DNA of 64,000 bases from NCBI GenBank assembly GCA_964519505.1, contig CAZFJX010000002.1, forward strand, positions 72,958-136,957, given 5' to 3'. The DNA comes from an uncultured Desulfurococcales archaeon. GTDB taxonomy: Archaea; Thermoproteota; Thermoprotei_A; Sulfolobales; CAZFJX01. Of this stretch, positions 23,243-42,403 are shown one piece after another. Position numbers and translations under genes: made by a program. The notes below the pieces were generated by a model. That model was not told where the DNA came from. It worked only from the letters and a program-made list of their open reading frames with translations, and made no database searches. The first letter of the stretch is position 1. Each line of letters starts with the position of its first letter.

Positions 23243-24718
23243 ATGAGTCTCTACAAAGATATAGAGGATGTGGGCAAAGCATTTACGGACATAATCCTAC
23301 TTACAAAACTAACTCTTTATGGTAACCTTATATATTTCGATAGAACCCCTTCGTTCAGGTTAGATTCCGTTCTAAAACGTTTTATAAAGATGGATAAACC
23401 TATATACATTAGAATAAGAGGTAAAGGGATTGAGGTCCATATACTTACTTACCTTAACGTAATTGTATGTTGCTCGGCGAGGGTTTCGGGTAAATGGATC
23501 ACTGGTTTTTCCGTCTTAGGGAATATAGAGGGTACTGAGTGTTTAATATATGCGTACGAAATCCCGTTAGATATCTTACCCAGAAATATTAATGAAGTGC
23601 TTAATAAAATAAAGAAAGAAATAGAGAGTATTAAACCACCATTAGCGTGGATAGGTAAGGAGCTTTATGGCTTTAAGTTATCCAAATTAGTAAACCCCGA
23701 CGATCCCTTATATTACATATTTCTTGGAGAGAGAAGAGGGTCTAATTACTTAGTTAAGATACTTAGGGAATTATCGCTTAATAATAGACCGCTAGCCTTA
23801 AATAAATCATTAAACTTCATGAGTATGATGTTAAGGAATACTATATCATTCTTAAGGATTACATCTATGGATGAGCATGAATTCTCAAGGATTTTAGAGA
23901 GAAAGGAAGTAAGTACAGAATTAGCTAAGGATATATTTACTGCTAAAGGTAATTTAGAAAGAATTCTGGGTTTCATAATTCCTAAAGATTCTTATGACAA
24001 TATTACTGAGTACATTAATTTGCCTCCAGTAATTATATCAGAATTTATTGATGGTATACCCCTATCTAGGGCTTCAAAAACAGTTAAGAATATGAGTATA
24101 TCATTCGTGAAAAGAGTTATGACCGAATTAACCACCTCTATCTCCTACCTCCATGTGCTGGGGTATGTTCACGGCAATATATCCCCCGATAACATAATGT
24201 TAACCACCAAGAAAGGTAAGCTAGGTATTAAGGTAATTAATTCGCTAACCGTAAGTGAAGGAGATAACTCTGTGATAATTAATTTAGGGTATATAGACCC
24301 TCAGACCATAGTGAGTAATGGCTGGTATACAGCAAGGTCTGACGTTTATAGCTTAGGAATGTTGATGTACTACACATTAACTAGTAAGCCGTTATTTACT
24401 AGATTAGCACTTAATTACGTAATAGCTAAGAGATTCAGTGTAAGTGCATTAATTGATGAGCCTGAAAGGTACATTACTCAAGAGGTAAGTAATTATGTAA
24501 GGGAACTTAGTGAAGTTGTCGATTCACTAGCCTTTAAGGACGTAGAGGGTGATATGAAGATAATAGGTGACGTACTTGCTAAGGAAGAAAAGAATCTACT
24601 AAGTCAAGTGGAAGTTAAGGAATATAGGTCAATTATAAAGAAATGCTTATCATTAACTACCGTAGATAGGTATAAGAACGCTATTGAGATACTTAACGAT
24701 TTAACGTTGATTAAGTAG
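23243..24718 (+). CDS. Protein-kinase-fold protein, predicted catalytically inactive (pseudokinase), with unknown N-terminal domain
   Basis: Kinase subdomains are readable: YLVKIL (beta3 Lys), hinge SEFIDG, catalytic loop HGNISPDNIML (HRD Asp is Asn), KVINSL in place of DFG, GYIDPQ (APE-like) and SDVYSLGMLMYY (subdomain IX). Confidence 0.65.
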   Translation: MSLYKDIEDVGKAFTDIILLTKLTLYGNLIYFDRTPSFRLDSVLKRFIKMDKPIYIRIRGKGIEVHILTYLNVIVCCSARVSGKWITGFSVLGNIEGTECLIYAYEIPLDILPRNINEVLNKIKKEIESIKPPLAWIGKELYGFKLSKLVNPDDPLYYIFLGERRGSNYLVKILRELSLNNRPLALNKSLNFMSMMLRNTISFLRITSMDEHEFSRILERKEVSTELAKDIFTAKGNLERILGFIIPKDSYDNITEYINLPPVIISEFIDGIPLSRASKTVKNMSISFVKRVMTELTTSISYLHVLGYVHGNISPDNIMLTTKKGKLGIKVINSLTVSEGDNSVIINLGYIDPQTIVSNGWYTARSDVYSLGMLMYYTLTSKPLFTRLALNYVIAKRFSVSALIDEPERYITQEVSNYVRELSEVVDSLAFKDVEGDMKIIGDVLAKEEKNLLSQVEVKEYRSIIKKCLSLTTVDRYKNAIEILNDLTLIK

Positions 24719-33822: not shown

Positions 33823-34104
33823 CTAACCACCAGCGGCTGGAGGGAAGATGTCTATTTCATCCCCATCTTTAATCTTAGTACTAAGTCCGCTTAGCATTAA
33901 GGCATTTAAACCATTAACTAATACCATGTAATCCTTCAAATCATCATCACTGGTTATTACTTCATTAAGCATAGGTATTGAAGAAATAACATCACCTAAC
34001 CTAGCGTCATCGTCATCAAGCTCAATCACCTTCTCGTCCCACCCTAACTTCTTTCTCAAGAATGCATACACCCTTACTTTGATACGCAAAGCAGAGTCCC
34101 TCAC
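33823..34104 (-). CDS. MoaD/ThiS-type ubiquitin-like sulfur-carrier protein
   Basis: 93 aa with beta-grasp-like spacing, ending ...IFPPAAGG (C-terminal Gly-Gly). Confidence 0.7.
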   Translation of the reverse strand: MRDSALRIKVRVYAFLRKKLGWDEKVIELDDDDARLGDVISSIPMLNEVITSDDDLKDYMVLVNGLNALMLSGLSTKIKDGDEIDIFPPAAGG

Positions 34105-34214
34105 CGAATTCTAAAGTTTTTGAGTTAAGAATTTTAAGATAAGAAACTTAAGGTGGATGCGATATTTAAAGAAAAAGTTTCATTTAGTTAGCCTACCTTA
34201 AAGTAATTACTCCA

Positions 34215-36101
34215 TTACTCAGGAAGCAGGCCCTCCTCCTCAAGTAAGTCAGCTACCCACTTAAGCCCTAACTCCTCAAGCTTCTCCCTAGTTGGCCTAC
34301 CCTCCTTCCATCCACGTAGCTTATAGTACTCATCAAGCATTTCGTGGAGCCTTACTACATGGCCCTTGCTTGGTCCCTCGGGCATTGGCTCCTCTAGTAA
34401 CCTCTTAGGTAGGGTGTCGTAAGCCCTACCATCACCGAAGGCTAAAACGTTAAATGCTCTTTCAGCCGTGTATATCCTTTCACCTATCTTCTCAATCTCT
34501 GCGGGTGTGATTTCCCAGCCTGTTATTGATGTTAATGCATCAGCGAAGTCATCAACCCATATAGCGAATGTTGAGAACTTACATATCACCATGCTATCAA
34601 CAACAGCGGATACGTCCTGGAAGTACTTAACCATCTTTGGCTTACCCTCAGTAGCGAACCTGTCTACTAGTTGCGGCACACCTAATACCTCAGGGCTAAT
34701 CATGTATGCTCTTAAGTGACACCCACCTCTATTGCTGGTTGCGTAGGCTAGGCCGTGGCCTTGAGCGCCTCTTGGGTCGTAGGCAGGTAACTCCTGACCC
34801 CTAACCACCATAGCAACCTCAGGGGCTCCATACTTCTCAGCTAATCTCTTGGCACCCTCAGCTAATTCGTCGCCAATACCCGACCTATAAGCGGTCCTCC
34901 ATGTTAACTCAACTATTGCCTCAGCAGAGCCCCAACCAACTCTTAAACCACGTAGCTTCTCAGCAGGTATCTTACCCTTCTCAATAAGCTCGAAGAACGT
35001 TCCTATAACGTGACCCATGCTAATCGTGTCTAAACCTAACTCATTACATAAGAAGTTAGCCTTAGCAATGGCCTCTAAGTTATCAACACCTGTCTGTGAG
35101 CCAAAGGCCCAGATGGTCTCATACTCAGGGCCTCCGCCCTCACCAGTCCATGGTGGTGTGGTCACCTTAGTGTATCTGGCACAGCCTACCGGACAGCCCC
35201 AACAGGCTTCTTCACGTACCTTCTCTTTAATTAGTATGGTTTCAGCCATTCTTTCTCCACTAATCTTCTCGGCGCCTGGAAAGACACCTGTCTGGAAGTT
35301 CCTTGTTGGGAATATGCCATGCCTATTGATTATGTTGACTAAGACTGCAGTGCCGTAAGCAGGTAATGCTTGACTCGTTACTGGACTCTTCTTTATCTTA
35401 TCCATAGCCTTAGCGATAGCCGACCTAAATAGATCCTCCTTAGCAGGCTTAGGCTTCTGAGTACCCCTAACAGCTATAGCCTTAAGCCTCTTAGAACCTA
35501 AAACAGCTCCATGACCGCCCCTGCCAGCCGCCCTATTCTTATCGTTGAGTATAGCAGCAAACCTAACTAGGTTCTCACCTGCAGGTCCTATACAAGCTAC
35601 CTTAATGTTCCTAGCATCGTCACCTATCTCAGCCTTCATCTCCTCAATAATCATGTCGGTAGTCGCATGTACGTCCTTTCCCCATAGGTGCTTTGCATCC
35701 CTTAACTCAGCCTTACCGTTATAGATCCATAACCATACAGGCTTCTCAGCGGCGCCCTCAACGATTATGGCGTCAAAACCAGCGAACTTTAGCTCAGGAC
35801 CCCACTTACCACCGCTTTGTGAGTCATGTATGGTACCGCTCAATGGGCTCTTAGTTACTGAGCACCAACGGCCGCTCATTGGGTAACCAGTACCTGTTAC
35901 GGGACCTGTCAGTAGGATTATCTTGTTCTCAGGGCTTAAGGGGTCAACCTTCGGGTTTAGCTCCTTAAGTAGTAGGTAAACACCTAGACCTCTACCGCCA
36001 ATCCAGTTTCTTAAGACCTTCTCAGGAGGGGTTTCGATGTAGAGCTTCTCCTTAAATAGGTCAACTCTTAGGATTTTACCTGTATAACCGCCTAAAGGCA
36101 T
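34215..36101 (-). CDS. aor: Tungsten-containing aldehyde:ferredoxin oxidoreductase
   Basis: 628 aa with AOR-family N-terminus (GYTGKILRVDL), a 4Fe-4S Cys pattern (CWGCPVGC...C) and pterin-binding strings. GC is higher than in neighbouring genes. Confidence 0.93.
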   Translation of the reverse strand: MPLGGYTGKILRVDLFKEKLYIETPPEKVLRNWIGGRGLGVYLLLKELNPKVDPLSPENKIILLTGPVTGTGYPMSGRWCSVTKSPLSGTIHDSQSGGKWGPELKFAGFDAIIVEGAAEKPVWLWIYNGKAELRDAKHLWGKDVHATTDMIIEEMKAEIGDDARNIKVACIGPAGENLVRFAAILNDKNRAAGRGGHGAVLGSKRLKAIAVRGTQKPKPAKEDLFRSAIAKAMDKIKKSPVTSQALPAYGTAVLVNIINRHGIFPTRNFQTGVFPGAEKISGERMAETILIKEKVREEACWGCPVGCARYTKVTTPPWTGEGGGPEYETIWAFGSQTGVDNLEAIAKANFLCNELGLDTISMGHVIGTFFELIEKGKIPAEKLRGLRVGWGSAEAIVELTWRTAYRSGIGDELAEGAKRLAEKYGAPEVAMVVRGQELPAYDPRGAQGHGLAYATSNRGGCHLRAYMISPEVLGVPQLVDRFATEGKPKMVKYFQDVSAVVDSMVICKFSTFAIWVDDFADALTSITGWEITPAEIEKIGERIYTAERAFNVLAFGDGRAYDTLPKRLLEEPMPEGPSKGHVVRLHEMLDEYYKLRGWKEGRPTREKLEELGLKWVADLLEEEGLLPE

Positions 36102-36284
36102 AACTCACTTAACCTCAGTATAACATATATAGTAGTACCAGATAAGTTTTTATGAACTATTAAGGACTGTACCCTACCTAAATTACTACAGTTTAAATAC
36201 TTAATTATGGACTTTAAGTGTCTAGATAGGTAAGTATATAAGTTCTATCCTCCCATAGTGAGTGGTGCGTAATGAGGGTTAGCC

Positions 36285-37382
36285 ATGAATAAATTCTCGC
36301 TTGGTGAGTGGGTAATAAGTGTCTCACCACTTAGCAGGCCAGAGAAATTAATGATTGAAGTGACCATGAAGTGTAATCTAAGTTGCTCGTATTGCTTTAG
36401 GAACAGCACTAATGAGTATTTCGGAACTATGGGTAAAGAACTCTACGACAAGATAGTTAATGATGCTAAAGAAGCTAGGGTTAAGTGGTTCATATTTTCT
36501 GGTTGGGGTGAACCACTCACTCATCCTAATATACTTGAATTTATTAAGGAGGCTAAAGAGGCAGGTATTAAAGTCGTACTAAACACTAATGGAACATTAC
36601 TCAAGAAATTCAATAAACACTTAATTGATTTAGGTGTTGATGAGGTTGTCGTGAGCGTTGATGCGGCTGAGGCGGAAATCCATGGTAGGTTAAGAGGGGG
36701 TAATCTTATTGAGATAATTAATGGCCTCATAGAGCTTTATGAATTAAGGAGGAGGTATAGCCACTTAATGAGGGTAGGACTTGAGTTCACACTAACTAGA
36801 TTAAATCGCCATGAGCTCCTCAAATTAATTGACTTGGCGAAAAAGGTGGGTGCTTCATATATTAGACTATCTAACATCATACCTATACGTAAAGAGCTAG
36901 AGGATCATGCATGTTATAATGATGAGGAATGTAGAAGGGACGTAGAGAAATATATGGATGTAATTAGTAAACTGAGTTTAGAGCATAATGTCCAAGTATA
37001 CCAGACTAACCTTGAGTTAAAGGCGCAAAGGGCTTGCCCTTTTGCTATGTATAAGGTTATGTTTATTAGGTGGGATGGTTTAGTGACCCCATGCATCCAT
37101 TACGCGCATGACTACGTTTTCTGGTTATTCGGTATTGAGAGAAGAGTGTATAAAGTAGTATTTGGTGATCTGCATAAAGAAAGCATTACCGATATTTGGT
37201 TAAACCCTGATTACGTAAAGTTTAGGTTTAGAGCCTTAACAGGTTATCAGCCATCATGCCTTGACTGCGTATTAGTTGAGTATTGCAACCTAACCCTAAA
37301 TAATATCATCGATTGCTGGGCTAATACACCAACATGTGCACACTGCCCGTTTATCTATGGATTAACTGCGTGCCCACTCTAA
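36285..37382 (+). CDS. Radical SAM/SPASM protein, tungsten-cofactor oxidoreductase maturase (Cmo-like)
   Basis: CNLSCSYC radical-SAM motif, GWGEP, and a C-terminal Cys-rich SPASM region. Divergently adjacent to aor, as cmo is in Pyrococcus furiosus. Confidence 0.78.
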   Translation: MNKFSLGEWVISVSPLSRPEKLMIEVTMKCNLSCSYCFRNSTNEYFGTMGKELYDKIVNDAKEARVKWFIFSGWGEPLTHPNILEFIKEAKEAGIKVVLNTNGTLLKKFNKHLIDLGVDEVVVSVDAAEAEIHGRLRGGNLIEIINGLIELYELRRRYSHLMRVGLEFTLTRLNRHELLKLIDLAKKVGASYIRLSNIIPIRKELEDHACYNDEECRRDVEKYMDVISKLSLEHNVQVYQTNLELKAQRACPFAMYKVMFIRWDGLVTPCIHYAHDYVFWLFGIERRVYKVVFGDLHKESITDIWLNPDYVKFRFRALTGYQPSCLDCVLVEYCNLTLNNIIDCWANTPTCAHCPFIYGLTACPL

Positions 37383-37436
37383 CACTATTTTTAAGTACCG
37401 CCGCAACATAGTCTCTTGCGGGTTAGGTGTTAGTAA

Positions 37437-38288
37437 GTGGGCACCTCACCCAAGAGCGAGGTCGCATCCCAAACAGCATTTGAAGAGCTTATTAAATCAA
37501 TAAGTCAAAGGCTGAGGAAGATAAAGTATAGGATAGCTGTAATAAGTGGTAAGGGGGGTGTTGGTAAGTCATTCATAAGTGCGTCATTAGCTTTAGGGTT
37601 AGCTTTAAGGAAGAGAAGGGTGGGTTTGCTTGATGCAGACCTTCATGGACCGTCAATACCTAAGATATTGGGGCTTGAGGGGAGGAGACTTATTGCTGGC
37701 CCTCCAGGGATTTTCCCTGTTGAAGGACCTTTAGGTGTAAAGGTTGTTTCAATACAGTTCCTCCTAGAGAGTGAAGACTCGCCAGTAATATGGAGGGGCC
37801 CACTAAAGTCTAGAGCGATAATGGAGTTCTTGAGTGGTATAGTATGGGGTGAGCTTGACTACCTCATTATAGACCTACCTCCAGGAACAGGTGATGAAGT
37901 TCTAAGTATAGCCCAGTGGATAAGGCCGTTTACGGGTGCGGTTGTTGTTACTATACCGTCAGAGCTTTCTAAGACTGTTGTTAAGAAAGCAATAAGGTTT
38001 TGTAAGGTGCTGAACATGTCTGTTTTAGGAATAGTTGAAAACATGAGTGAGTTCTATTGCCCGGATACTGGTAAGACATACAAGGTATTTGGCAAAGGTG
38101 TTGGGCAAGAGCTAGCTAGGGAATACGCTATTAAGTACTTAGGCTCCATACCTCTAGACCCTAGAATATCAGAAGCTAATGATAAGGGTGAACCATTCCT
38201 ACTGAAATACAGTGATTCACCATCAGCTAAGGCATTAATGGAAATAGTTGATAAGATCATAGCTATAGTTGAGGGGCGGGGAACGTAA
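37437..38288 (+). CDS. Mrp/ApbC/NBP35-family Fe-S cluster carrier ATPase
   Basis: Deviant Walker A SGKGGVGKS and the ENMS string. The usual CxxC is CPDTG here (second Cys absent). Confidence 0.82.
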   Translation: MGTSPKSEVASQTAFEELIKSISQRLRKIKYRIAVISGKGGVGKSFISASLALGLALRKRRVGLLDADLHGPSIPKILGLEGRRLIAGPPGIFPVEGPLGVKVVSIQFLLESEDSPVIWRGPLKSRAIMEFLSGIVWGELDYLIIDLPPGTGDEVLSIAQWIRPFTGAVVVTIPSELSKTVVKKAIRFCKVLNMSVLGIVENMSEFYCPDTGKTYKVFGKGVGQELAREYAIKYLGSIPLDPRISEANDKGEPFLLKYSDSPSAKALMEIVDKIIAIVEGRGT

Positions 38289-39012: not shown

Positions 39013-40881
39013 TTAGCCCTGATGTAGTTCCCCTATGCTTGCGCGCCCTATGTCGTAGTGACCCATTAATGGTTCGCTAGTCTTGAACGTTACATAGCCT
39101 GATCTTATGGCTGAAGACCTTAATACACCCTCCCTATCAGGCGCTAGCATTAAGAACCTAGCATACTCGGGCGGTATCTGTAAGTCCTCTATAAAGGCTT
39201 TCTCGGTCCTTAAGATCACTTTAGTGTTAGATAACTGAATTATTATCTTATGTACATCTCTAGGTGAGTGCGTCGAGAATATAAGCCCTAACCCTCTAGA
39301 CCTACCTAACCTAGCAATCATGGATATGAAGTCAGCAAGAACCTCAACCTCCTCACCTGAGGTACCCTCAGCAGGGAAGAACCTATGCGCCTCATCAAAA
39401 ATAACTACCGATGGCCTATCGAAAATTTTAGCCCTAAACTTCTTCCATTCATACATAGACCTTAAGAACTCATACGCAAGTAGGTTAAGCGCGAACTGCT
39501 GAACTCCTTGTAGCACTCCGTAGTCTAAATCAAGGATTATAGGTCCCCTATAATCCCTCATCAACATGTCTGCAGGCGGTATCTTAATCTGTCTATTCTC
39601 TAAAACAACATCGGAGATCTCGGTTCCTGCAAGCCACTTAAACACTCTCTCAATATTATCTAATGTTGACCTATGTATCTTAAAGTAGTTATGTATGTTC
39701 TCCCTATGGTCAACAAAAACTTCTTGCAGTCTCTCAAAAGAGTTAATTCCGTGACCTACCTTCTCTAAGTAGTTAATCATTAGGTCTAAGTAGATCCGGG
39801 CCTGCCTGGAAAATAGTGGAATTATATTTAAGTGAGGCTTAAGCTGCTCATAATTTAATGCTATGGGGATTATTTCCACTTTAGTTATTAAGTCAGCACG
39901 TACCTTCAAATCAACGATAACTGACTTTACATAACCTAAGTTCCTACCTTCATCAGGACTTAGTTCGTACTCGAGTTTACGTCCATGAAATAGGTCTAGG
40001 ATCTTCTCATACCTATCGGTTATGAAAGTCTCAACGAATTCCTTAATGCTCTTAAACTCCCTAGTGACTGGTGTTAATATTGTGAAGTATTTCGGGTACT
40101 TACTTAGATAATCCTCCCTAGACTTAATGATCACGTTAGCGTCTGAGGGTAGTGTGAGCGGCGGTATAGCTATTTGTGTGTAATCACCTGCAGCATCAAT
40201 TATTACTATACCTACATCAGCCCAGTCCTTCTGCATTGCATAGATAATGTTCTTTATTAAGGTTGTCTTACCTGAGCCAGTAGTACCTACTATCAATACA
40301 TGCTTAAAGAACTCAGACCTAGGTAACCTTACAGGGACCGTACCATTAGCAACAGGTTCTAAACCGCCAAGTAAAACCCCAAGTACAACTCCCTCAGTAG
40401 GTAATCCAGTAACCTTAACAATTAGCTCGGGATCCTTAGGTATCACAACGGGTGACTGAGGCTCTATAGGTGAAAGCAAGGGTTCACCTTCCTCAGATAG
40501 TAATGGCTCAGCATCAACTATTGTAGGGGTTATGAGGCCCTCAGGCTCGATATCTAAGGGCAATGAGATGGGTGGTGAAGACTCGGAAATAACGTCAACC
40601 CTAGATATAGACTTAACTCTAATCCCGTAGGTTTTTAATGAGCCTATATCAACAGCTACTAAATAATCATTTACCGCTATGCGATAGTTGAAATATGTTT
40701 GTGGGTCAATCTCAAACTGTATGGTTAAGCCAGTATCACTACCCGAAGCTAATGAAGCCCTACGCCTTGATACCCTACCTATTATCGTACCTAACCCACG
40801 GGCCTTCTTAATAGCCTCCCTAACTTTACTCTCGAGTACCTTAACACGCTCCTCATATCCCCTTATTATGTCGTAACTCAC
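39013..40881 (-). CDS. HerA/FtsK-superfamily ATPase (HerA-like, DUF87-type)
   Basis: Walker A GTTGSGKTT, Walker B VVIFDEAHRF and a HAS-barrel-like N-terminal region after a short coiled-coil. Overlaps the upstream NurA-like gene by 4 nt. Confidence 0.8.
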   Translation of the reverse strand: MSYDIIRGYEERVKVLESKVREAIKKARGLGTIIGRVSRRRASLASGSDTGLTIQFEIDPQTYFNYRIAVNDYLVAVDIGSLKTYGIRVKSISRVDVISESSPPISLPLDIEPEGLITPTIVDAEPLLSEEGEPLLSPIEPQSPVVIPKDPELIVKVTGLPTEGVVLGVLLGGLEPVANGTVPVRLPRSEFFKHVLIVGTTGSGKTTLIKNIIYAMQKDWADVGIVIIDAAGDYTQIAIPPLTLPSDANVIIKSREDYLSKYPKYFTILTPVTREFKSIKEFVETFITDRYEKILDLFHGRKLEYELSPDEGRNLGYVKSVIVDLKVRADLITKVEIIPIALNYEQLKPHLNIIPLFSRQARIYLDLMINYLEKVGHGINSFERLQEVFVDHRENIHNYFKIHRSTLDNIERVFKWLAGTEISDVVLENRQIKIPPADMLMRDYRGPIILDLDYGVLQGVQQFALNLLAYEFLRSMYEWKKFRAKIFDRPSVVIFDEAHRFFPAEGTSGEEVEVLADFISMIARLGRSRGLGLIFSTHSPRDVHKIIIQLSNTKVILRTEKAFIEDLQIPPEYARFLMLAPDREGVLRSSAIRSGYVTFKTSEPLMGHYDIGRASIGELHQG

Positions 40882-41978
40882 TTCATCTCACCCCTTAGTT
40901 CATAAGGGACTGAAAGCCCATAGAACTCGAATCTCTTAATAATGTAGTTCTTTAACATCCTAACTAAAGATTTACTTATCCTATCTGCCTCAAGTAACTT
41001 TATCGGTATTAAGAATCTATTATTTAATGAGCTGTATGTAAGGAATGTTACAAGCTCACTAAGTGATTTAGGCTTTATACTCTCGTAAGTCTCTTTAAGC
41101 ATCTCAATCCTAAAGATACCGTATGAACCCTTAACCACGGATCTAGGTATTGCTACGTATGTGAATACCCTATCAGGACCCAAATGGGCCTTCTCATATA
41201 TGAAGAAAGGGGTTCTTAATGGTTTATGAGGGGGTCTCAGCTTAATGAGGTATCTATTAAGTACATTTACGTCCCTATCTTTACCGAAGTATTTAGTGGG
41301 TAGGTACTTACTTGTTTCGATACGCTTAACTATGGCTAACGGTATGAAGCCTTCCTCAGTAAGCTCCTTAAACATCTTTACCCTCTCTTCATTAAGTTTA
41401 TGTAACTCATCATTCCATCTACTTCTTAAGTTCTCTGAATGGTAAATTGGGTAGTATATTGGACCGTCAATAAGAATAATGGTCTCTCTAAAAACCCTCT
41501 TACTTAATGCCATTAAGTATGTCTCCATCGATATCCTTACATCATGTTCTAAAGCCCCTTCAGGTAATGCTTTATCTTCCCTATACTTAATGCCTAGCTT
41601 GATATATGAGGTGGTGACCCCAGGAAGCCCTTCTTTATCACCTAAGTAAGATATGAAAGGTATTGGTAAGTCCCTTAAGGATATCCTTGGGTAGTAAATG
41701 CATTGACCCCAGTAAATAGTGCCTGCAGCTGCAGCTAACTCAATGCCGTAAGTACTTACTGACGTACTACTAGCGTCTAAACCTATAACCCTCCTATAGG
41801 TGACTTCACCCTTCTCTATAGGCTTAAATAAGGTTTTACATTCAAAATCCTCTAAAGGTCTTGATAGGTCACCACCTAAATAGTCAAGTACCGTTAACTT
41901 AGGCCTATGTATAGGTAAGGCTTTCGCAAACGTTAAAGTGTCCTTCACCACCTCCTCTAAGACATTAAACACAACCAC
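40878..41978 (-). CDS. NurA-like nuclease (RNase H-like fold)
   Basis: Acidic motif series IGLDASS, RISMETY, ILIDGPIY and LLEADRIS, in the order expected for NurA catalytic residues. Coupled to the HerA-like gene. Confidence 0.62.
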   Translation of the reverse strand: MVVFNVLEEVVKDTLTFAKALPIHRPKLTVLDYLGGDLSRPLEDFECKTLFKPIEKGEVTYRRVIGLDASSTSVSTYGIELAAAAGTIYWGQCIYYPRISLRDLPIPFISYLGDKEGLPGVTTSYIKLGIKYREDKALPEGALEHDVRISMETYLMALSKRVFRETIILIDGPIYYPIYHSENLRSRWNDELHKLNEERVKMFKELTEEGFIPLAIVKRIETSKYLPTKYFGKDRDVNVLNRYLIKLRPPHKPLRTPFFIYEKAHLGPDRVFTYVAIPRSVVKGSYGIFRIEMLKETYESIKPKSLSELVTFLTYSSLNNRFLIPIKLLEADRISKSLVRMLKNYIIKRFEFYGLSVPYELRGEMK

Positions 41979-42042
41979 TTTACTTCCTCACTAAATACCT
42001 CCTTCTTTATAAAATTTAAATAAGTTTCCATAAGTGAGATAA

Positions 42043-42390
42043 TTAGGTAGGCCAACCAGCAAGAGGGGGTTAACCTTAAGAGATATTAATGAGAGGTATA
42101 TTGAAAACTTAAAGGGATTATTCAAAAGGCTCTTCTTAGGATACCGTAATTACTTTGACAAGAATGGGATCCTTAACTCTGATGGTAGGAGGCTTTTCAA
42201 GGAAATAGCTCGCTTACTACTTTACGTATTCCCTGAACATAAGGGTATAGTTAAGAAAGTTCGTAAGGACCCTAGGCTTAGCAACGTCATTAAAGTTGCT
42301 GAGTTAGTTATGAGTTCTGAAGAGATTAATGAGTTAGTGAGCTTAGGTATTTACGGTCCATACAGGTATTTAATACATAATAATGATTAA
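42043..42390 (+). other. 115-codon open frame without canonical start codon (possible gene with unusual start, or decayed gene)
   Basis: Stop-to-stop frame LGRPTSKRGLTLRDINERYIENLKGLFKRLF...GPYRYLIHNND. There is no ATG, GTG or TTG until codon 90. A TATAAAATTTAAATA box lies at about 42009-42024. Absent from the ORF track. Confidence 0.25.
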
Positions 42391-42403
42391 TTAAACGATA
42401 ACT

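What the first reader, a model, noticed from the sequence alone, without database searches (positions are those of the whole stretch)
39013..41978. Stand-alone, translationally coupled NurA-like/HerA-like pair lacking mre11-rad50
A 366-aa protein carries the NurA acidic motif series GLDAS, METY, LIDGP and LEADR. It overlaps by 4 nt (ATGA) a 622-aa HerA/FtsK-type ATPase with GTTGSGKTT and VVIFDEAHRF motifs, a HAS-barrel-like N-region and an extra N-terminal coiled-coil. In Sulfolobus and Pyrococcus the repair genes herA and nurA sit in one operon with mre11 and rad50. Here the flanking genes are an exporter and an orphan open frame. nurA directly precedes herA, as in the bacterial two-gene modules. 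HerA-family ATPases paired with nucleases or other effectors have recently been implicated in anti-phage defence in bacteria. This pair could be either the split-off end-resection machine or a paralogous nucleic-acid-targeting or defence module.
Basis: partly seen in the sequence, partly recalled or inferred. Interest (0 to 1): 0.62.

Follow-up and report, generated by a model that had tools for sequence, protein, structure and literature searches.

The report
Second, non-canonical NurA–HerA nuclease-motor pair
The two overlapping genes are a real but divergent second copy of the archaeal NurA nuclease / HerA DNA-motor pair, a lineage-restricted and uncharacterised paralogue of the well-known DNA-break repair pair, sitting among housekeeping genes rather than in a defence island.

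Summary
ORFs 40878-41978(-) (366 aa) and 39013-40881(-) (622 aa) overlap by 4 nt (GTGA, not ATGA) and carry every quoted motif. Pfam, AlphaFold2 and Foldseek confirm a NurA RNase-H-fold nuclease and a HerA/FtsK-type ATPase.

It is not the canonical repair pair. NCBIfam HerA equivalogs score 28-38 bits against cut-offs of 800-970, and the NurA equivalogs do not hit. Three related genomes carry this pair and a canonical-type nurA-herA pair side by side or 5.5 kb apart.

The pair is linked in 17/17 complete related loci (Desulfurococcaceae, Acidilobaceae, Sulfolobaceae). Other neighbours change, and they are housekeeping genes. No CRISPR array lies in the window or in any fetched locus; the window's ORFs give no cas match, and the loci with neighbour annotation show no cas genes.

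For both proteins the nearest described relatives are the type III CRISPR-associated NurA/HerA families, but similarity is only moderate.

Most likely this is a HerA6-NurA2-type ATP-driven DNA translocase-nuclease. It is inherited vertically and its cellular role is unknown: a second DNA-end processing role is favoured, and defence is not excluded.

Multiple nurA-herA paralogue pairs in Thermoproteota were already described (Bernick 2012), so this is a new member of a known kind. Interest is modest.

The parts
40878..41978 (-). nurA-like gene (366 aa), an RNase-H-fold nuclease and first gene of the pair
   Evidence: ORF. Pfam NurA 34.5 bits, above the cut-off of 21. AF2 model pLDDT 71.5 / pTM 0.76. 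Foldseek top hits are NurA structures: 2ygk E 4.6e-9, 1zup, 9x1m_G.
39013..40881 (-). herA-like gene (622 aa), a HerA/FtsK-superfamily ATPase
   Evidence: ORF. Pfam DUF87 46 bits and HerA_C 35.5 bits. AF2 pLDDT 87.3 / pTM 0.87. Foldseek top hits are HerA structures: 9x1m_A E 1e-22, 7wrx, 4d2i.
40878..40881 (-). 4-nt GTGA overlap: the herA-like GTG start over the nurA-like TGA stop
   Evidence: Sequence. Junctions of -23 to +35 nt, mostly overlaps, occur in 15 of 16 other loci.
41775..41777 (-). NurA-like D68 (GLDAS), predicted metal-binding Asp on beta-strand 1
   Evidence: Invariant in 19 sequences. Inferred from motif order and secondary structure to correspond to PfNurA Asp51 / SsoNurA D58. 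Lies in strand E64-76 of the model.
41523..41525 (-). NurA-like E152 (METY), predicted catalytic Glu
   Evidence: Invariant. In helix 142-162. Inferred from motif order and secondary structure to correspond to PfNurA Glu105.
41466..41468 (-). NurA-like D171 (LIDGP), predicted second metal-binding Asp
   Evidence: The D171-G172-P173 triplet is invariant. At the end of strand 167-171. Inferred from motif order and secondary structure to correspond to PfNurA Asp126.
40983..40985 (-). NurA-like D332 (LEADR), predicted fourth active-site residue
   Evidence: Invariant. In C-terminal helix 326-352. Inferred to hold the position of PfNurA His411 / TtAgo Asp660.
40261..40287 (-). HerA-like Walker A, GTTGSGKTT (res 199-207)
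   Evidence: G199 T200 T201 G202 G204 K205 T207 are invariant in 25 sequences. Coordinates checked.
39379..39408 (-). HerA-like Walker B region, VVIFDEAHRF (res 492-501)
   Evidence: D496 E497 H499 F501 are invariant. This is the only region that aligns with canonical-type HerA in hhalign.
40792..40878 (-). N-terminal amphipathic helix (res 2-30) with a heptad a/d pattern. It is an extension that the canonical-type HerA of relatives lacks.
   Evidence: AF2 helix 2-30. Sequence. Canonical-type HerA (A4) starts directly at the barrel strand.
40438..40791 (-). Beta-rich N-domain (res 31-148), HAS-barrel-like
   Evidence: AF2 strands 31-37, 53-58, 73-77, 84-94, 120-129, 144-148. Foldseek alignments to HerA structures span 600-700 columns. 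Family member L018 aligns residues 78-262 to positions 19-189 of the HerA_Thermprot model. The Pfam HAS-barrel model is not among the 25 families shown for this protein.
42006..42020 (-). TATA-like box TTTAAATTTTATAAA, about 30-40 nt upstream of the nurA-like start. Putative promoter of the two-gene operon (inferred).
   Evidence: Sequence. Similar A/T boxes sit upstream of nurA-like genes in several relatives.

Best explanation
This is a two-gene operon encoding a paralogous ('class 2') NurA-HerA nuclease-translocase. It is distinct from the canonical HerA-NurA double-strand-break resection pair. It is inherited vertically in the Desulfurococcales/Acidilobales/Sulfolobaceae lineage. Its closest described relatives are the type III CRISPR-associated NurA/HerA families.

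Proposed mechanism, inferred by homology. The HerA-like protein forms a ring ATPase (Walker A K205, Walker B D496/E497). The ring translocates duplex DNA through its pore towards a NurA-like dimer docked on its N-terminal barrel face. There the strands are cut at a two-metal RNase-H-type site (D68, E152, D171, D332).

The overlapping stop and start codons (suggesting translational coupling) and the parallel divergence of the two proteins indicate an obligate complex.

The cellular role is not shown. I favour a constitutive chromosomal DNA-end processing or clearance function, acting alongside the canonical pair. I rate this about twice as likely as a dedicated antiviral function.
For: Shown:
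- Domain and fold identity of both proteins.
- Catalytic and ATPase residues are invariant across 19 and 25 homologues respectively.
- It is not a canonical orthologue. HerA equivalogs NF040819 and NF040937 give 38 and 29 bits against cut-offs of 970 and 800, and no NurA equivalog hits. The canonical-type pair in relatives gives 394-418 bits (HerA_Thermprot) and 114-116 bits (NurA_Sulf).
- Both kinds of pair coexist in L012, L032 (complete genome CP072660.1) and L034.
- hhalign between the two kinds aligns only the Walker B/sensor block for HerA (114 columns) and gives probability 40% for NurA.
- The pair is adjacent in 17/17 complete loci, and no other gene is universally linked.
- Gene junctions are mostly overlapping.
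- The NurA and HerA identity matrices correlate with r = 0.79, and 0 of 2000 Mantel permutations reach that value.
- Sister relation to the CRISPR-associated families. HerA scores 151 bits on PADLOC 'Type III coevolved' HerA, against 64 bits for canonical-type HerA. The NurA-family profile retrieves P0271 at E 8e-18, and P0271 is a full-length 225-bit match to the type III NurA model.
- Housekeeping context. The window holds LysE, nitroreductase, an ABC ATPase, a class-I tRNA synthetase, AOR and rSAM genes. Flanks are syntenic across Desulfurococcaceae genera. The 78%-identical relative shares the window's synteny.

Inferred from published work: the 6:2 HerA:NurA architecture, docking through the HAS domain, and mutual activation (Blackwood 2012 PMC3326311; T. 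kodakarensis complex structures 9x1l-9x1p).
Against: - No experiment exists on any member of this family.
- NurA-like similarity to solved NurA is low: 13-14% identity, TM 0.36-0.52, and the model has pLDDT below 50 for 80 residues.
- Complex formation and stoichiometry were not modelled.
- The correlated divergence would also be expected of any two vertically inherited genes.
- The closest described relatives are CRISPR-linked, which pulls towards a defence role.
- I could not examine the window's whole genome, so coexistence with a canonical pair is shown only in relatives.
Confidence: 0.75

Rival explanations
1. Stand-alone innate antiviral module. The pair would degrade invading linear or foreign DNA independently of CRISPR. 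It would be either a descendant or an ancestor of the type III CRISPR-associated NurA-HerA accessory pair.
For: The best PADLOC matches for both proteins are the 'Type III coevolved' HerA (151 bits) and NurA models. These families derive from type III CRISPR neighbourhoods (Shah 2018; Bernick 2012 nurA-csm6-herA). HerA rings partnered with effectors are proven anti-phage systems (Sir2-HerA, HerA-DUF4297 and TdpAB structures among the fold hits). A defence role has been proposed even for canonical HerA-NurA.
Against: There are no CRISPR arrays in the window or in the 32 loci scanned. The window's 49 other ORFs gave no cas match, and the Pfam-annotated loci list no cas families. PADLOC hits elsewhere in the window are generic and scattered. 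The flanks are housekeeping genes and stay syntenic across genera, unlike defence islands. There are no relatives on viral contigs. The pattern of retention looks vertical across several families. NCBIfam anti-phage HerA equivalogs score only 27-29 bits against cut-offs of 800-850.
Confidence: 0.2
2. It is the organism's canonical DSB end-resection HerA-NurA, merely separated from mre11-rad50.
For: The domain families are the same and the pair is tightly coupled. NCBI names family members 'DNA double-strand break repair nuclease NurA'. The window's whole genome could not be searched.
Against: Canonical equivalog models are missed by a wide margin. Three relatives carry a separate canonical-type pair. 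Profile-profile similarity to that pair is limited to ATPase motifs. The NurA-family profile retrieves no canonical NurA among 10 sampled hits.
Confidence: 0.04
3. It is a type III CRISPR accessory module acting in trans on a cas locus elsewhere in the genome.
For: The closest described families are the type III co-evolved HerA/NurA.
Against: The scores are far from family-level: 151 bits for a 622-aa protein and 25 bits for NurA, whereas a true member scores 225 bits on the NurA model. No CRISPR array lies within 10 kb in any locus scanned, and neither csm6/CARF nor cas genes appear where neighbours were annotated. The defining neighbourhood criterion is therefore not met.
Confidence: 0.06
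4. It is a DNA transfer or secretion ATPase (Ced/Ted import, VirB4/TraD-like coupling protein), not a nuclease partner.
For: There are weak hits to CedD (37 bits), VirB4, TraD and TrwB.
Against: All of these scores are far below their cut-offs (600-700) and are confined to the P-loop. The invariant partner is a NurA nuclease, not membrane or pilus components. The best structural matches are HerA rings.
Confidence: 0.02

Closest known systems
Canonical archaeal HerA-NurA end-resection complex (S. solfataricus SSO2251/SSO2248, P. furiosus, T. kodakarensis; PDB 4d2i, 2ygk, 3tal, 9x1l-p)
   Same: The same two folds: a HerA ring-ATPase fold with an N-terminal barrel, and an RNase-H/PIWI-like NurA. 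The active-site motif order is the same (D...E...D...H/D). The genes are adjacent and co-oriented. The predicted 6:2 translocase-nuclease mechanism is the same.
   Different: Sequence is extremely divergent: 12-16% identity, and equivalog HMM scores of 28-38 bits against cut-offs of 800-970. This HerA has an extra roughly 30-residue N-terminal helix. The Walker A to Walker B spacing is about 290 residues. The fourth active-site residue is Asp rather than His. There is no mre11-rad50 nearby. The pair coexists with a canonical-type pair in related genomes.
Type III CRISPR-associated NurA/HerA (Pyrobaculum nurA-csm6-herA, PAE0122/PAE0128; Shah et al. clusters 57/58; PADLOC PDLC01055/PDLC01056)
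   Same: These are the best-scoring described families for both proteins. Reciprocally, the window-family NurA profile retrieves a true member. They are non-canonical NurA-HerA paralogues of Thermoproteota.
   Different: Similarity is only moderate. There is no csm6/CARF gene between or beside the pair. No CRISPR array is nearby in the window or in any locus scanned, and no cas gene where neighbours were annotated.
Third, unassigned nurA-herA pair of Thermoproteales (PAE2154/PAE2155 group; Bernick et al. 2012)
   Same: It is a conserved, vertically inherited, non-CRISPR, non-canonical nurA-herA pair of unknown function in Thermoproteota.
   Different: Orthology could not be tested, because those sequences were not retrievable with the tools available. 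They are from a different order.
Bacterial HerA-NurA (Deinococcus radiodurans DR0837/DR0836, PDB 7f6d/7wrx)
   Same: It is a stand-alone two-gene module without adjacent mre11-rad50. The structural match to HerA is good (TM 0.58-0.62).
   Different: It is a bacterial lineage acquired from archaea, with a documented role in recombination. There is no sequence-level affinity beyond the ATPase motifs.
HerA-effector anti-phage systems (Sir2-HerA/Nezha, HerA-DUF4297, TdpAB, MADS mad8)
   Same: A HerA-fold ring ATPase is coupled to an effector encoded next to it. These systems appear among the fold hits. The mad8 model scores 87 bits.
   Different: Here the effector is NurA, not Sir2, DUF4297 or TdpB. 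NCBIfam anti-phage HerA equivalogs score 27-29 bits against cut-offs of 800-850. The other mad-like hits in the window are generic domains scattered over 50 kb.

Membership tests
NurA nuclease family (Pfam PF09376) | Match to the family HMM above the gathering threshold | tested here: met
   34.5 bits against a cut-off of 21, E 2e-8, covering 63-333 of the protein and 2-250 of 254 profile positions.
NurA nuclease family (Pfam PF09376) | RNase-H/PIWI-like fold resembling solved NurA | tested here: met
   AF2 model (pTM 0.76). Foldseek top hits are 2ygk (E 4.6e-9), 1zup, 9x1m_G and 3tai, followed by Argonaute PIWI and RNase H. TM-scores are modest (0.36-0.52).
NurA nuclease family (Pfam PF09376) | Conserved acidic active-site residues (D, E, D plus H/D) in the correct secondary-structure elements | tested here: met
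   D68, E152, D171 and D332 are invariant in 19 homologues. They lie on strand 1, helix 142-162, the end of strand 167-171 and the C-terminal helix respectively. Their 3-D clustering was not measured.
NurA nuclease family (Pfam PF09376) | Toroidal dimer and Mn2+-dependent 5'-3' exo/endonuclease activity | not testable with these tools
   This needs biochemistry or a multimer model.
HerA clade of the FtsK-HerA superfamily | HerA central (DUF87) and HerA C-terminal domain matches above threshold | tested here: met
   DUF87 scores 46 bits (cut-off 23.2) and HerA_C 35.5 bits (cut-off 22).
HerA clade of the FtsK-HerA superfamily | Intact Walker A and Walker B motifs | tested here: met
   GTTGSGKT and DE (496-497) are invariant in 25 homologues.
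HerA clade of the FtsK-HerA superfamily | N-terminal HAS beta-barrel domain | tested here: inconclusive
   AF2 predicts a six-strand beta domain at residues 31-148. Foldseek alignments to HerA structures span 600-700 columns. Family member L018 aligns to the N-terminal part of the HerA_Thermprot model. The Pfam HAS-barrel model is not among the 25 families shown, and the barrel was not superposed separately.
HerA clade of the FtsK-HerA superfamily | Hexameric ring and DNA-stimulated ATPase/translocase activity | not testable with these tools
   Inferred from fold hits to hexameric HerA structures.
Canonical DSB-repair HerA/NurA orthologues (NCBIfam NF040819, NF040937, NF041033, NF041032) | Score at or above the curated equivalog cut-off | tested here: not met
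   HerA scores 38.2 against 970 and 28.6 against 800. NurA has no hit at E <= 1. Canonical-type neighbours in relatives score 394-418 and 114-116 bits.
Canonical DSB-repair HerA/NurA orthologues (NCBIfam NF040819, NF040937, NF041033, NF041032) | Operon or neighbourhood with mre11 and rad50 | tested here: not met
   No such genes are found in the 64-kb window or within 8-10 kb in the Pfam-annotated related loci (L034 ends inside its second herA).
Type III CRISPR-associated NurA/HerA accessory families (Shah clusters 57/58; PADLOC PDLC01055/56) | Family-level HMM match | tested here: inconclusive
   This is the best PADLOC hit, but it is moderate. HerA scores 151 bits over 145-593. NurA scores 25 bits, against 225 bits for a true member, P0271.
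Type III CRISPR-associated NurA/HerA accessory families (Shah clusters 57/58; PADLOC PDLC01055/56) | Location next to type III cas genes, csm6/CARF or a CRISPR array | tested here: not met
   No arrays are found in the window or the 32 loci scanned. No cas hits are found among the window ORFs, and no cas families among the Pfam-annotated neighbours of relatives.
Bacterial anti-phage HerA systems (NCBIfam NF042943/NF042944; Sir2-HerA, HerA-DUF4297) | Equivalog score and a Sir2 or DUF4297 effector partner | tested here: not met
   Scores are 26.7 and 28.5 bits against cut-offs of 800 and 850. The partner is NurA.
MADS (mad1-mad8) defence system | A mad8-like ATPase clustered with the other mad genes | tested here: not met
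   mad8 scores 87 bits on HerA. The mad2, mad3 and mad6 hits in the window are an RsmB methyltransferase (53.9 kb), an ABC ATPase (4.6 kb) and a protein kinase (23.2 kb). They are scattered and generic.

The most novel reading that the evidence does not exclude
The pair is a CRISPR-independent, chromosomally fixed innate DNA-degrading immune module of Desulfurococcales/Sulfolobaceae. It would be the free-standing form of the NurA-HerA unit that type III CRISPR systems of Thermoproteales recruited, with csm6, as an accessory effector. That would give an evolutionary route from a housekeeping resection machine to a CRISPR-coupled effector.
Probability: 0.2. Interest if true: 0.6.

Novelty: new member of a known kind. 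Interest (0 to 1): 0.35.

Why it matters
Archaeal HerA-NurA is usually treated as a single repair machine. This locus belongs to a small subfamily: only 203 clusters at 50% identity among 1.84 billion representatives match its NurA profile. The subfamily is conserved, uncharacterised and coexists with the canonical-type pair. Its nearest described kin are CRISPR-associated.

Knowing what it does would clarify three things:
- why hyperthermophilic Thermoproteota keep two or three NurA-HerA machines;
- whether some of them act in genome maintenance and others in immunity;
- how the CRISPR-linked version arose.

It also warns that database names such as 'DNA double-strand break repair nuclease NurA' are being over-transferred to paralogues.

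The existence of such paralogue pairs has been published since 2012, and nothing about the architecture here is unexpected. The surprise value is therefore limited.

Tried and rejected
1. PDB sequence search. HerA gave only local Walker A/B matches. NurA gave no meaningful hit; the SAS-6 hits at E about 0.1 are chance.
2. Word-indexed homologue search for NurA found only 4, then 9, proteins. The family is too divergent for that index, so the exhaustive profile search was used instead.
The window's own genome was not recovered.
4. The viral-contig scan found no true relatives, only P-loop-level hits.
5. A CRISPR-array search by TRF and by a k-mer spacing scan of the window plus 32 loci found nothing.
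6. A possible MADS defence cluster was suggested by mad2/3/6/8 hits in the window. It resolved into scattered generic domains.
7. The Sulfolobales DNA-damage (Orc1-2) promoter motif ANTTTC occurs once, in reverse orientation, upstream of the window gene. It is not conserved in relatives, so it was rejected.
8. An Rfam scan of 36-45 kb found nothing.
9. The afdb50 fold library was unavailable. Placement relative to named Pyrobaculum paralogues was therefore not possible.
10. Ced/Ted or conjugation ATPase ideas were rejected on scores and on the identity of the partner gene.


Full report
**Observation**

The minus strand carries two ORFs, 40878..41978 (366 aa) and 39013..40881 (622 aa). They overlap by four bases. 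The overlap reads GTGA: the GTG start of the second gene over the TGA stop of the first. It is not ATGA.

The profile matches are significant:
- Pfam assigns the first protein to NurA (PF09376; 34.5 bits, gathering cut-off 21).
- Pfam assigns the second to the HerA central domain (DUF87, 46 bits) and to HerA_C (35.5 bits).

An AlphaFold2 model of the NurA-like protein was built on a 10-sequence alignment (pLDDT 71.5, pTM 0.76). Its best PDB matches are S. solfataricus NurA 2ygk (E 4.6e-9), TM1739 1zup, T. kodakarensis NurA in the HerA-NurA complex, and P. furiosus NurA. Argonaute PIWI domains and RNase H follow.

The HerA-like model (pLDDT 87.3, pTM 0.87) matches T. kodakarensis, D. radiodurans and S. 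solfataricus HerA. It then matches the HerA rings of HerA-DUF4297, TdpAB and Sir2-HerA.

The model has an N-terminal helix (residues 2-30) with a clean heptad a/d pattern. A six-strand beta domain and the ATPase core follow. Canonical-type HerA of relatives lacks that helix.

**Context in the window**

- Downstream lies a LysE exporter.
- Upstream, transcribed divergently, lies a nitroreductase-family gene. It is not an orphan.
- The 425-bp spacer has a TATA-like box 30-40 nt before the nurA-like start.
- On the other strand the spacer has a 116-codon stop-free frame with no canonical start.
- Further neighbours are an ABC ATPase, a class-I tRNA synthetase, an aldehyde:ferredoxin oxidoreductase, a radical-SAM/SPASM protein and an Mrp/NUBPL ATPase.
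- The window has no tRNA genes and no CRISPR-like array. The 36-45 kb stretch around the pair gives no Rfam hit.
- PADLOC hits elsewhere in the window are generic domains 18-30 kb apart: an ABC ATPase, a protein kinase, an RsmB methyltransferase and an FAD oxidoreductase.
- Pfam on the other ORFs shows ordinary metabolism.

This is not a defence island.

**Is it the canonical repair pair? No.**

NCBIfam's canonical HerA equivalogs score 38 and 29 bits against cut-offs of 970 and 800. No NurA equivalog hits at all.

In three related genomes the family pair coexists with a separate canonical-type nurA-herA pair.
- In L012 and in the complete genome CP072660.1 (L032) the canonical-type pair lies immediately downstream.
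- In L034 it lies 5.5 kb downstream.

Those canonical-type proteins score 394-418 bits on HerA_Thermprot (216 bits for a truncated copy) and 114-116 bits on NurA_Sulf. They carry a Pfam HAS-barrel.

Profile-profile comparison between the two kinds aligns only the Walker B/sensor block of HerA (114 columns). NurA reaches only 40% probability. They are ancient paralogues.

Nothing else in the window resembles the canonical-type proteins. The canonical-type pairs in L032 and L012 also lack adjacent mre11-rad50. Absence of those genes is therefore not diagnostic in this lineage.

**Family and distribution**

The HerA-like protein has full-length relatives at several identity levels:
- 47-53% identity in 'Sulfolobales/Desulfurococcales archaeon' MAGs;
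- 33-36% in Desulfurococcaceae (Staphylothermus marinus F1 and S. hellenicus, Thermosphaera, Thermogladius);
- 32-38% in Acidilobaceae;
- 28-30% in Sulfolobaceae (Acidianus hospitalis).

A NurA-like gene is adjacent in all 17 loci that include both sides.
- In 15 loci it is upstream and co-oriented. Junctions range from -23 to +35 nt and mostly overlap.
- In two Sulfolobaceae loci it is rearranged: herA then nurA in one, convergent in the other.

No third gene is universally linked. Desulfurococcaceae loci share stable flanks:
- upstream: DHH, histone deacetylase, CYTH and PD-(D/E)XK genes;
- downstream: a CDP-alcohol phosphatidyltransferase and a TIM-barrel 'AP endonuclease 2' gene.

The 78%-identical relative shares the window's own flanks.

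Pairwise identities of the two proteins co-vary (r = 0.79; 0 of 2000 Mantel permutations reach it). This is consistent with a complex, but it is also expected for any two vertically inherited genes.

No relatives occur on viral contigs.

The NurA subfamily is small. 203 representatives match at E <= 1e-3, and 84 at E <= 1e-30, among 1.84 billion.

**Nearest described relatives**

Among PADLOC models, the best hit for HerA is 'HerA, Type III coevolved' (151 bits, residues 145-593). The best hit for NurA is 'NurA, Type III coevolved' (25 bits). The same holds for family members from S. marinus, Acidianus and others. Canonical-type HerA scores only 64 bits on that model.

Conversely, the window-family NurA profile retrieves P0271 at E 8e-18. 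P0271 is a full-length 225-bit match to the type III NurA model. None of ten sampled hits matches a canonical NurA equivalog.

These PADLOC models derive from Shah et al. 2018 clusters 57/58. They trace back to the nurA-csm6-herA clusters of Pyrobaculum. In that genus Bernick et al. 2012 documented at least three nurA-herA pairs: one canonical, one CRISPR-associated and one unassigned.

The window pair is thus a further member of a known phenomenon. It is related to, but not a member of, the CRISPR-linked family. The neighbourhood criterion fails everywhere I looked.

**Mechanism**

Shown:
- Both folds are confirmed.
- The NurA-like residues D68, E152, D171 (in an invariant DGP triplet) and D332 are invariant. 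They sit on the secondary-structure elements where PfNurA has Asp51, Glu105, Asp126 and His411.
- The HerA-like Walker A (GTTGxGKT) and Walker B (D496-E497) motifs are invariant, along with several arginines.

Inferred from the canonical system, meaning the 6:2 complex, docking of NurA on the HAS-barrel face, mutual activation, and dsDNA threaded through the ring to the nuclease:
- a HerA-like hexamer translocates duplex DNA into a NurA-like dimer;
- the dimer cleaves the separated strands by two-metal catalysis;
- the family-specific N-terminal helices would crown the barrel face and could form part of the interface or gate it (speculative).

The cellular role is not shown. Stable, housekeeping, partly syntenic neighbourhoods and lineage-wide retention favour a constitutive DNA-processing function alongside the canonical pair. 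Kinship with the CRISPR-associated clade keeps an antiviral role open; I put it at about 0.2.

**Verdict**

The pair is a new member of a known kind. Interest is modest (0.35). It is a clean, conserved, uncharacterised paralogue family worth a biochemical look, but it would not surprise specialists.

Noticed in passing
window 42046-42390 (+ strand), inside the 41979-42403 spacer: A 116-codon stop-free frame (…RGLTLRDINERYIENLKGLF…IYGPYRYLIHNND*) ends 14 nt before the nitroreductase start. It has no ATG, GTG or TTG until its last 26 codons. JGI called a gene here in an identical contig (L027 3687-3988). It has no Pfam match.
   Followed up: partly
L032 8668-14840 (CP072660.1), L012 1-4280, L034 7238-17830: In some relatives the paralogue pair and a canonical-type nurA-herA pair are arranged in tandem as nurA2-herA2-nurA1-herA1, or lie 5.5 kb apart. 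This suggests an old tandem duplication or functional co-localisation. S. marinus keeps the same flanks but lacks the second pair at that site.
   Followed up: partly
L018 6479-9482; L019 9968-12968: In Sulfolobaceae the pair is rearranged. In L018 herA precedes nurA with a 14-nt overlap. In Acidianus hospitalis (L019) the genes converge and their 3' ends overlap by about 70 nt. Co-translation is therefore not obligatory for the family.
   Followed up: no
L004 3527-8677 and the equivalent regions of L006, L007, L013, L014, L016, L032: Across Desulfurococcaceae genera a conserved block lies divergently upstream of the pair. It contains DHH phosphoesterase, histone-deacetylase-family, CYTH, NUDIX and PD-(D/E)XK genes plus two unknown small genes. 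It may be mere synteny or a nucleotide/nucleic-acid-related neighbourhood.
   Followed up: no
window 23243-24715 (+): A 491-aa protein has a divergent Ser/Thr-kinase-like C-terminal half (HGNISPDNIM). It hits the PADLOC PD-T4-6, mad6 and MkoA kinase models at 33-53 bits. It is isolated, with no defence partners nearby.
   Followed up: partly
L009 (QMSR01000057.1, 5.7 kb): A contig binned as 'Thermoplasmata archaeon' carries a family HerA at 33% identity, typical of Desulfurococcaceae members. This is probably a mis-binned contig rather than real presence in Thermoplasmata.
   Followed up: no
window 33823-38288: A compact cluster holds a MoaD/ThiS-like small protein, an aldehyde:ferredoxin oxidoreductase, a radical-SAM/SPASM protein and an Mrp/NUBPL Fe-S ATPase. 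The cluster is conserved in the 78% relative L033. It looks like an AOR maturation module.
   Followed up: no
public annotations of family members: NCBI names the NurA-like paralogues 'DNA double-strand break repair nuclease NurA', and names the partner only 'ATP-binding protein'. The functional name is over-transferred from the canonical family.
   Followed up: yes
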